Part shown: in pieces, positions 24,463 through 26,961 of the stretch
How the letters are laid out: every line of letters starts with the position of its first letter
How positions within the stretch are numbered: the stretch's first letter is position 1
Source: Eledone cirrhosa
Taxonomy: Eukaryota
Assembly (NCBI GenBank): GCA_964016885.1
Contig: OZ024744.1
Location: 123,442,001-123,506,000 of the forward strand
Reading direction: 5' to 3'
DNA length: 64,000 bases
The notes under the pieces: model-generated
The model's input: the letters and a program-made list of their open reading frames with translations, nothing else
What the model was told of the DNA's origin: nothing
Database searches by the model: none
Position numbers and translations under genes: made by a program

Positions 24463-24770
24463 ACCCTATCATCATTCATCATCATTTCATTTTACGTCTG
24501 CTTTTCCCTGCTTGCAAGAGTGGGATGGGAACTGATTCTGGCTTGATTTCTACAGCTGGATGCCCTTCCTAACACTAACCTCATTTACAGTGAGTGCTGG
24601 GTGCTTTTTTGCCGTGGCACCTCCACGACCACTTTGCAGTGGAATGATAGGGACCCCAGTGCTATCATTTCATTTCTACAGCTGAGTAAACTGGAGCAAT
24701 GCGAAATAAAGTGTCTTGCTCAAGGAAACAACACATCACCCGGTCGGAGAATTGAACTCACAACCTTTTA
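24463..24770 (-). mobile_element. Copy of the same tRNA-derived SINE with the head truncated
   Basis: Colinear with 1436-1606 plus 4549-4650. Confidence 0.85.
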
Positions 24771-25089
24771 TGGACGAGTTCGCTGCAACGGTCTCTGTCC
24801 CTCATTATCGCTGCCATGTCCTGTGTCTCCAAAAGACCAGTGTCTGTCCTTAGGGCGTCAACATACGTTGACCTTAGTCTTCCTCTTCCAGTGTGTCCAT
24901 GTAGGGGCTCACACAGGAGCACTGAGTGCAATGTCAACTCTGGATGTCGGTGAGCATGTCCAGCTAACCTCAGTCTCCTCTGTGTCAATTTTGAACTGAC
25001 TTTTGGGAGGCTCCTTCACTGTATTTGTCACCAAAACTATGTCGTCGGCAAATTCAGCATCCGATATCTTGTTTGCCTTAACTCTCCTC

Positions 25090-25094
<5 letters not shown>
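24770..25094 (-). mobile_element. 3' LINE fragment (RTE-like RT end), internally deleted; inverted relative of 26180-26961
   Basis: RRLRLAGHAHRH..GRGRLRSTYVD. Nucleotide match to 26180-26260 and 26690-26935. Confidence 0.85.
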
Positions 25095-25122
<28 letters not shown>

Positions 25123-25235
25123 GACTCCAGTTCCCCAGTGAATTAACAACCCAACAAGGAACTGGGCATATCAGAGTATTGGCAATATCATACACCTAAA
25201 CAACATATGCACTTGTCTATACCATACTAATTCAA

Positions 25236-25290
25236 ACTGCCTGAAGAGGTCACAGCCAAAGATGGCTGTCACTGAAATATATATAGCAGT
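25236..25290 (+). ncRNA. Type I hammerhead ribozyme (Penelope-like, short palindromic stem III)
   Basis: ACTGC-CTGAAGA-GGTCACAGCCA(aaga)TGGCTGTCACT-GAAA-T(ATAT)A-TA-GCAGT. All core residues present, 5-bp stem I, AATAAA immediately downstream. Confidence 0.8.
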
Positions 25291-25334
25291 AATAAATGAA
25301 GCTAAATTTTAATCATTTGACTTTTATTTAACTT

Positions 25335-25339
<5 letters not shown>

Positions 25340-25422
<83 letters not shown>
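25340..25422. repeat. (TA)n microsatellite (others at ~24170-24348, 25095-25121 and 26085-26165)
   Basis: Direct inspection. Confidence 0.95.
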
Positions 25423-25424
<2 letters not shown>

Positions 25425-25699
25425 TAAATCATGTCCTTAGAATCACTAGATAAAATATATACCATTTCCTATCCCAATTAGCATAATTAACCATATAAAA
25501 ATCAATTAGACCAAGCTATAAGAATAAAGGCTCCTATGAAGAAATTTTCGACAAATAACCGAAAGCGGCCTCTTCGCGGTGGCCACGATAGAGTATTTAT
25601 CCAACATTTCAACAGCATGTAGAAACTGACCAAATATACCGTCAACCATACACAATTAGGTGTAAATTCCAACTTAGAAGAAATGTGTACATACCGTAA

Positions 25700-25780
25700 T
25701 TATCTCTACCATGGTTTCGTCCGTATTTTAAGACATCCAATAACAGGAAATGTCCAGAGTTTCGGACTCATCAGGAGCAA
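25700..25780 (-). ncRNA. Type I hammerhead ribozyme with extended stem II
   Basis: Minus strand reads TTGCTC-CTGATGA-GTCCG...CGGAC-GAAA-C(CATG)G-TA-GAGATAA. Stem III is the palindrome ACCATGGT. Confidence 0.78.
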
Positions 25781-26100
25781 ACTCAAAATTAGACATTTAA
25801 TTTTCCAAAGTGATCGCGCCAAAAATAGATTAAAAAATGGCTAAGAATCGTGACGTGGCAATGGTCAAGTTAGAAAGAATGTGATTAGTTGCTTACGGTG
25901 GGTAGGCTTGTTGCTAGAAAGCGCAGCCCAATATCGCCCAATTGTATCTCAACCTAACGAGAGATTATTAAATATAAAGGTTTACATATACATAAAGTCA
26001 TAGATATATATGTTTTGCAACCGGTCACGTTGTGGCTCAATGAAGAATTAATAAATTAAGTAATCAGAGCAATATATCATAAATCATATATATATAGTAT

Positions 26101-26168
<68 letters not shown>

Positions 26169-26179
26169 TAGTATCCGGC

Positions 26180-26961
26180 TCAGAGCAGGAGAGTTAAGGC
26201 AAACAAGATATCGGATGCTGAATTTGCCGCCGACATAGTTTTGGTGACAAATACAGTGAAGTAGGCAGAGGATTTGATGCAGGAGGTTGAGACTGTGTCG
26301 ATGAGTGTGGAGCTGAGAATGAATGAGACTAAAACAAAATATCTGGTAGAGAATGTTGAGAAGCCAGAGGGGATTACTAATGTAGGCGGGAAGCCGCTGG
26401 AATTGGTTGAGGACTTCCTGTATTTGGGAGCAAAGATTGGGAATACGGAAGATGATGTGGTCGAGAGGAAGAGCAAAGCCTGGGCGGTGTGCCACAGATT
26501 AAGATCGGTGTGGAAGTCGGACCTTCGTAAAGACCTGAAAATCCGCCTCTTCATTGCTGTACGGGTCTGAGACTTGGACACTGACCAAGAAACTCACTCA
26601 GATGGTGGATGGGTGCTACACGAGAATGTTGAGGATCGCTCTGAAGATTAATCAGTATACACTGAGGATGAAAAACTCAGAGCTGTATGGGAGCCTCCCA
26701 AAAGTCAGCTCAAAAGTGACACAGAGGAGACTGAGGTTAGCTGGAGATGCTCACCGACATCCAGAGTTGACATTGCACTCAGTGCTCCTGTGTGAGCCCC
26801 TGCATGGACAAACTGGAAGAGGAAGACCAAGGTTAACGTATGTTGATGCCCTAAGGACAGACACTGGTCTGTTGGAGACACAGGACATGGCAGCGATAAT
26901 GAGGGACAAAGACCGCTGGAGAGAACTCGTTCATGGATCTGGGGAAATTTACCCGCCCTAG
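26180..26961 (+). mobile_element. 5'-truncated LINE (RTE-like RT C-terminal region)
   Basis: EFAADIVL (FADD-like), LRMNETKTK, VEDFLYLG, YGSETWTLT and RRLRLAG..GRGRPR. Confidence 0.87.

What the first reader, a model, noticed from the sequence alone, without database searches (positions are those of the whole stretch)
25236..25296. Hammerhead ribozyme 1 between (TA)n tracts
Seen: complete core CUGAAGA...GAAA...UA, perfect stem I (ACUGC/GCAGU), an 11-position stem II with one C-C mismatch and a G-U closing pair, and a minimal stem III inside the self-complementary AUAUAUAU, followed by AAUAAA. Established: type I hammerheads with short palindromic stem III mark Penelope-like element pseudo-LTRs and metazoan non-LTR retrozymes, and can cleave as dimers. 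Predicted cleavage is after 25285. The host segment (~25122-25340) is only ~220 bp and non-coding, so it may be a solo pLTR or a small ribozyme-bearing mobile unit.
Basis: partly seen in the sequence, partly recalled or inferred. Interest (0 to 1): 0.7.

Follow-up and report, generated by a model that had tools for sequence, protein, structure and literature searches.

The report
Hammerhead stub of Hydra-Penelope retrotransposon
The hammerhead ribozyme fold is real and sits in a 220-base end piece of a protein-coding Penelope-like jumping gene with thousands of copies in TA repeats; the piece is likely a DNA copy that ran off the start of the element's uncut RNA, so it is a new member of a known kind.

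Summary
The type I hammerhead at 25236-25290 is present as described (0 of 100 shuffles give such a motif), though Rfam misses it. Its 37-nt core has 4,238 exact genomic matches. The 217-nt host segment is the terminal repeat (pLTR) of a ~4.1-kb Penelope-like element whose ORF has the published marks of the Hydra clade (RWK, DKT, CxCx5C, CxxC/CxH, (TA)n target). It is not an independent retrozyme. Copies end at two 3' sites ~103 nt apart, and 22 of 22 resolved head-to-head pairs have one of each. 5' ends pile up exactly at this copy's start (313 TA-joined and 586 palindromic arms, against 6 at a control site), 52-56 nt behind a CCAAT box kept in four sister families. I read that point as the likely transcription start, with uncut RNA as template. 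Cleavage and the start site are untested; no RNA run was listed. The scan reached the Hydra and start-site readings before on other DNA of this and other genomes.

The parts
25095..25122 (.). (TA)n target tract on the left; its last four bases (ATAT, 25119-25122) are also the element's own sequence and mark the 5' hot spot (likely transcription start)
25119..25341 (+). Solo pLTR piece of a Hydra-clade Penelope-like element, from the 5' hot spot to the first (short) 3' end
25126..25165 (+). Predicted hairpin at the 5' end of the piece
25236..25290 (+). Type I hammerhead fold: stem I 25236-25240/25286-25290, core 25241-25247, stem II 25248-25273, GAAA 25274-25277, palindromic stem III 25277-25284, predicted cut after 25285
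25291..25296 (+). AATAAA hexamer; the motif stands shortly behind the ribozyme in 6 of 7 aligned family representatives; role unknown
25340..25422 (.). (TA)n target tract on the right, shared with the 3' end of a second hammerhead element on the opposite strand
25423..26071 (-). Neighbouring, unrelated ~655-nt repeat unit with its own hammerhead (25704-25777); partial tandems and a ~103-nt tail; retrozyme-like, not part of the finding

Best explanation
The segment is the hammerhead-bearing terminal repeat of a Hydra-clade Penelope-like retrotransposon, inserted in a TA repeat, and this 220-base copy is likely a DNA copy that began at the element's first internal priming site and ran off the start of an uncut transcript. 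Shown: the fold, the copy number, the parent element with RT and GIY-YIG-like ORF, the (TA)n flanks, two fixed 3' ends, the 5' hot spot. Inferred: the element's protein nicks (TA)n, primes reverse transcription inside its RNA at one of two sites ~103 nt apart (one per target strand, hence short/long head-to-head pairs), and, when it uses the sites near the RNA 5' end, reaches the transcription start after ~220 or ~325 nt; the cDNA end ATAT then anneals to the target or to the second cDNA. The ribozyme itself would cut only as a dimer or with protein help, in transcripts that carry two pLTRs, likely to process or circularise unit-length RNA; in this solo copy, which lacks the upstream CCAAT box and a partner, it is likely inert. 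Odds: pLTR of a Hydra PLE 0.95; run-off at the transcription start 0.65; dimer- or protein-dependent cleavage 0.6.
For: 4,238 exact core matches, control 0, against 73 for a 26-mer in the ORF. pLTRs in direct repeat 4.1 kb apart around an ORF. Hydra motifs in that ORF match section 11 and the supplement alignment of PMC8557442. The model of the element's C-terminal domain has the GIY-YIG endonuclease I-TevI as top three hits (prob 0.92-0.96); the model of a 55%-identical homologue hits reverse transcriptases and telomerases. 55 of 57 arms end at 213-221 or 314-326, the other 2 run on into the ORF; 22 of 22 resolved head-to-head pairs are short+long. 5' hot spot: 18 of 57 arms; genome-wide 313 + 586 arms stop there, 1,324 run on, 6 stop at an internal CATATG control, at most 18 at the cut site. 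CCAAT box 52-56 nt upstream of the same ATATG in four families, with 762 arms stopping there in family B. Monomer stem III costs 3.4 kcal/mol (P 0.0005 for the exact active fold). Internal initiation, uncut template and protein-assisted cleavage are published for a Poseidon element (PMC11167929).
Against: No RNA evidence for the start site or for cleavage. Rfam does not recognise the motif. Pfam found no RT or GIY-YIG family in four ORF pieces, phmmer against PDB found nothing significant, and the I-TevI match has E = 0.14-0.16. Covariation across 8 family representatives is weak: 1 of 16 pairs with a change on both sides, 32 of 500 shuffles reach the score, and the core was fixed by my search pattern. 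The hot spot also carries a palindrome and TA microhomology and lies just outside a hairpin, which could favour breaks without a start site. All five long copies translated have broken ORFs. The G.U closing pair of stem II departs from the G10.1-C11.1 pair that PMC4209133 calls highly conserved.
Confidence: 0.75

Rival explanations
1. Same parent element, but the 5' hot spot is a sequence or structure effect: reverse transcription from a longer RNA stops after the 5' hairpin, or the TCATATGA palindrome lets the cDNA anneal to the (TA)n target or fold back.
For: The hot spot is an 8-nt palindrome containing ATAT next to a predicted hairpin at 25126-25165; some arms break inside the hairpin (positions 24-39).
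Against: An internal CATATG that more copies pass gives 6 TA junctions against 313; the 8-nt AT run in stem III gives at most 18; family B has different sequence downstream yet breaks at the same distance from its CCAAT box.
Confidence: 0.2
2. Head-to-head copies arise by self-priming on an antisense transcript (the reading of PMC3846280), and solo pieces such as this one are remnants of that route.
For: 586 arms sit in perfect palindromic junctions; the model is published (passages).
Against: Arms often start at different points (24/35, 99/12, -5/39) and always end at different fixed sites, which fits two separate priming events; this copy has no mirror arm.
Confidence: 0.1
3. The 217-nt unit is a non-autonomous element of its own (retrozyme or SINE-like) that spreads through a small circular or linear RNA.
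For: Ribozyme end outnumbers ORF about 58 to 1; size fits non-LTR retrozymes (PMC7229834, passages); boundaries are sharp.
Against: No head-to-tail array of the unit in the 30 best loci or the 40 position-chosen loci; three 5'-end variants occur in both short and long copies, so the short form recurs from each master; unit ends do not coincide with the cut site.
Confidence: 0.07
4. The hammerhead fold is a relic that no longer cleaves and is kept for another role, such as protein binding or splicing.
For: Copies starting at the cut site are rare; in the Poseidon element ribozyme mutants did not affect insertion in vitro; min-HHRs cleave poorly (PMC4209133).
Against: Stem II keeps pairing through C-G to U-A and G.U to G-C changes, and the 5' strand of stem I, not fixed by my pattern, is kept in 8 of 8 representatives.
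Confidence: 0.3

Closest known systems
Hydra clade of C-terminal-endonuclease Penelope-like elements, incl. Hydra-1_Obim of Octopus bimaculoides (Craig et al. 2021, PMC8557442)
   Same: RWK, DKT, CxCx5C linker, CxxC and CxH around E and N, no CCHH, (TA)n insertion, hammerhead present, partial tandems, inverted 5' copies, tail at one end only.
   Different: A different family from Hydra-1_Obim (other N-terminus and other hammerhead row by eye); unit ~4.1 kb with a ~1.1-kb 3' UTR against 'generally <3 kb'; tail ~103 nt against 30-40 bp.
Hammerheads of metazoan PLE pLTRs with small palindromic helix III (Cervera and de la Pena 2014, PMC4209133)
   Same: Type I, short helix I (5 bp), long helix II, palindromic helix III, mostly dispersed single copies from truncated elements.
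   Different: Helix II is longer (11 positions) with a C.C mismatch kept in sister families, no bulged base after A9, and a G.U closing pair in this subfamily.
Poseidon element of Anolis carolinensis (Frangieh et al. 2024, PMC11167929)
   Same: Two fixed 3' ends read as internal initiation sites; AT-rich target; uncut RNA as template.
   Different: Other clade; ribozyme here lies in the 5' UTR about 250 nt before the ATG, not over it; 3' junctions here overlap the target by a few T/A bases.
Metazoan non-LTR retrozymes (PMC7229834; bioRxiv 10.64898/2026.07.22.740005)
   Same: Small non-coding unit with a type I hammerhead, low GC.
   Different: No tandem array of this unit; it is part of a coding element. 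The neighbour at 25423-26071 fits the retrozyme picture better.

Membership tests
Type I hammerhead ribozyme | Core CUGANGA / GAAA / UH with three helices in type I order | tested here: met
Type I hammerhead ribozyme | Match to Rfam Hammerhead_1 at gathering score | tested here: not met
   the model has 45 positions and a short stem II
Type I hammerhead ribozyme | Covariation of helices among relatives | tested here: inconclusive
   92% of cells paired, 1 of 16 pairs compensatory, 32 of 500 shuffles as high; core fixed by the search pattern
Type I hammerhead ribozyme | Site-specific self-cleavage | not testable with these tools
   needs in vitro or RNA-end data
EN+ Penelope-like element | pLTR - ORF (RT, C-terminal GIY-YIG) - pLTR | tested here: met
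   layout, RT motifs; homologue model; I-TevI top hits, weak E-value; Pfam blank
EN+ Penelope-like element | Partial tandems, inverted 5'-truncated copy, tail at one end | tested here: met
   tail is ~103 nt, longer than described
EN+ Penelope-like element | Promoter, start site and intron in the pLTR | tested here: inconclusive
   conserved CCAAT box and 5' hot spot; no RNA data; no GT..AG joint among listed joints in contigs of unknown kind
Hydra clade | RWK motif and DKT in place of DKG | tested here: met
   RMRWK and ADKTN in L051, L055, L057; definition
Hydra clade | CxCx5C linker; CxxC and CxH around E and N; no CCHH | tested here: met
   CNCRNPESC, CKLC, CRH; no cysteine pair inside the VYG..YIG core
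Hydra clade | (TA)n insertion and hammerhead | tested here: met
Hydra clade | Placement in the RT phylogeny | not tested
   no tree built; published Hydra sequences were compared by eye only
Hydra clade | Generally shorter than 3 kb (typical, not strict) | tested here: not met
   unit 4.1 kb, owing to a long 3' UTR and a low-complexity insert in the ORF
Neptune clade | DKG, CX2-5CxxC linker and CCHH | tested here: not met
Non-LTR retrozyme | Head-to-tail tandem repeats of a 150-450-nt unit | tested here: not met
   none in 70 loci; not a whole-genome test
Non-LTR retrozyme | Abundant small circular RNA | not testable with these tools
   no RNA holder listed

The most novel reading that the evidence does not exclude
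The thousands of short copies are a genomic footprint of the whole Penelope priming scheme: a CCAAT-box promoter sets the RNA start, two priming sites ~103 nt apart are used strictly one per target strand, and uncut sense RNA is the template, so the ribozyme is kept off during copying by a stem III that is itself a copy of the (TA)n target. This would map start site and both priming sites of a Hydra element to the base and settle, for this clade, the open question of which RNA strand and form Penelope elements copy.
Probability: 0.55. Interest if true: 0.5.

Novelty: new member of a known kind. Interest (0 to 1): 0.3.

Why it matters
As a ribozyme it is ordinary: one of thousands in a known setting. 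Its use is as a test case. How Penelope-like elements make their pseudo-LTRs, inverted ends and tails, and what the hammerhead does, is still open (PMC8557442, PMC11167929). This young, high-copy family gives exact predictions: start site at 25119, priming at about 25339-25341 and 103 nt further, cut at 25285/25286. The conserved CCAAT box at a fixed distance from the 5' hot spot is support for the start-site reading that does not depend on the junction sequence.

Tried and rejected
Rfam scans did not find the motif. Pfam and phmmer against PDB were blank for the ORF pieces. My first label, Neptune, was dropped after reading the Hydra definition. A tally of hammerhead positions in 97 arms showed only scattered single changes, but those loci were chosen for similarity and overlap, so it is no test of core conservation. 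The first structure job folded the homologue P0001, the first row of alignment A1, not the element's own protein. A search of earlier findings by this sequence returned nothing. Element 2 as part of the same insertion was rejected: no sequence shared, opposite strand, own family. The exact 23-mer of its hammerhead gave only 27 matches because that stretch varies among copies, so it is no copy number.

Full report
Observation. Stems I and II form the minimum-energy fold (z = -2.6). A descriptor with stem I >= 5 and stem II >= 9 pairs hits this site only, and none of 100 shuffled windows. Rfam does not report it.

Copies. The 217-nt segment between the TA tracts has 351 first-look candidates, of which 40 were scored; the best are 96-99% identical. 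The exact 37-nt core occurs 2,134 + 2,104 = 4,238 times, the reversed control 0 times. A pattern with CUGAUGA and the same stem III finds 3,349 more, in at least three sister families. Across 8 representatives, stem II changes C-G to U-A and G.U to G-C and keeps the C.C mismatch, but the statistic is weak (1 of 16 pairs compensatory; 32 of 500 shuffles as high) and the core was fixed by the pattern.

Parent element. Longer copies continue upstream through a ~1.1-kb UTR into an ORF, and L051, L052 and L055 carry the segment twice in direct orientation 4.1 kb apart around that ORF. The ORF has RT motifs (IQLDIASYY, MGSSDS, YRDD), RWK, DKT, a CxCx5C linker, a VYG..YIG core without a cysteine pair, CxxC and CxH. 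These are the features given for the Hydra clade in PMC8557442 (section 11 read whole), which also lists (TA)n targeting, hammerheads and a family in Octopus bimaculoides (supplement rows); by eye that family is related but distinct. Thirteen homologues were found, one named from Argonauta hians, so the host is likely a cephalopod (inference). A model of the element's own C-terminal domain has I-TevI as its top three matches (prob 0.92-0.96, E 0.14-0.16); a model of a homologue matches reverse transcriptases and telomerases. Pfam and PDB sequence searches were blank. A 26-mer of the ORF has 73 exact matches. All five long copies that I translated across the ORF (L051, L052, L055, L056, L058) are broken.

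3' ends. I took 40 loci from the first places listed: 35 consecutive small loci on contig C1 and 5 picked for wide spacing. Of 57 arms with the exact core, 27 end at element position 213-221 (the window's end), 28 at 314-326, and 2 run into the ORF. Of 27 loci with a minus arm followed by a plus arm, 22 have both outer ends resolved, and all 22 pair one short with one long end; 5 were dropped (two arms of ~30 nt, two cut by the locus edge, one running on), and L076 and L079 may be one duplicated insertion. This is the one-sided tail of the literature, here ~103 nt rather than 30-40 bp, and fits two internal initiation sites (PMC11167929, parts 1-2 of 4 read).

5' ends. 18 of 57 arms begin within -6..+2 of the window copy's start. 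Genome-wide exact counts: 313 arms joined to TA there, 586 arms in palindromic junctions there, 1,324 running on upstream (other junction types not counted, patterns differ in length). An internal CATATG gives 6 TA junctions. The stem III / cut-site region gives at most 18; of the 8 loci inspected, 3 were only AT expansions in an intact ribozyme. A CTGACCAATG box lies 52 nt before this ATATG in families A, D and E and 56 nt before it in family B, and 762 arms of family B join TA at its ATATG. That CCAAT is a promoter element is recalled knowledge. The pLTR holds the start site in Penelope and Chlamys-3 (PMC8557442 section 10). I therefore read the hot spot as the likely transcription start. 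The window copy runs from it to the first 3' site, across an intact cut site, which implies an uncut (or re-ligated) template.

Ribozyme function. Forming stem III in the monomer costs 3.4 kcal/mol; the 8-nt palindrome pairs with itself at -3.2 kcal/mol. This fits dimer cleavage as described in PMC4209133 (parts 1-2 of 4 read), where activity was low, and protein-assisted cleavage in PMC11167929. A transcript from a full unit would hold two ribozymes. The window copy has no CCAAT box and no partner of its family nearby, so it is likely inert. None of this is tested; no RNA holder was listed.

What is known. Hammerheads in pLTRs, dispersed truncated copies, inverted ends, tails and Hydra elements in octopus are in print. 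Four library searches listed no paper on cephalopod hammerheads, on a CCAAT box in pLTRs, or on a start-site hot spot of truncation; the library lacks most subscription papers. Also seen: passages of PMC13282606 (Penelope-like families in an octopus, no mention of ribozymes), PMC7229834 and PMC3846280, and part 1 of 5 of bioRxiv 10.64898/2026.07.22.740005. Earlier scan notes reached the Hydra and start-site readings on other DNA; I had written both down before looking, and they are not independent support. No note held the word CCAAT together with my other search words.

Verdict. Real feature, new member of a known kind. Interest 0.3; 0.5 if the start-site and strict two-site scheme is confirmed.

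Noticed in passing
window 25423-26071 (-): A second, unrelated ~655-nt unit with a hammerhead (CUGAUGA..GAAAC, 5-bp stem II with a 40-nt insert) ends in the same TA tract, tail to tail with the finding. 4,715 first-look candidates; partial tandems of the unit, inverted ends and a ~103-nt tail; no own ORF seen in 20 loci. A candidate non-LTR retrozyme, longer than the 150-450 nt described.
   Followed up: partly
window 24770-25094 (-) and 26165-26934 (+): Two LINE-like RT fragments, 89-94% alike, face each other head to head around the TA tracts and both hammerhead elements; the left one lacks a block present in the right one. The RTE-like label is from recall and untested.
   Followed up: no
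window 25291-25326 and sister families (alignment A4): AATAAA and then TTGAC are kept behind the ribozyme across families, followed in the tail by ACTCCGGA and CGTYGAGTG motifs. TTGAC resembles a branch point; an intron or a priming signal is possible. Earlier notes describe a conserved tail hairpin.
   Followed up: no
L055:2762 (window 25273 equivalent): About 39% of contig depth carries C here, giving the canonical G10.1-C11.1 pair; the window's subfamily has G.U.
   Followed up: no
L023, L035, L051, L052: Different TA-targeting elements pile up in one tract: family B ribozyme beside family A in L051, element 2 beside family A in L023, another Hydra-type ORF beside element 2 in L035.
   Followed up: partly
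window 28755-63831: A 48-bp satellite fills much of the second half of the window in several blocks.
   Followed up: no
L025:1285-1500: Four head-to-tail repeats of the first 53 nt of the element in front of a full arm, suggesting repeated template jumps at the 5' end.
   Followed up: no
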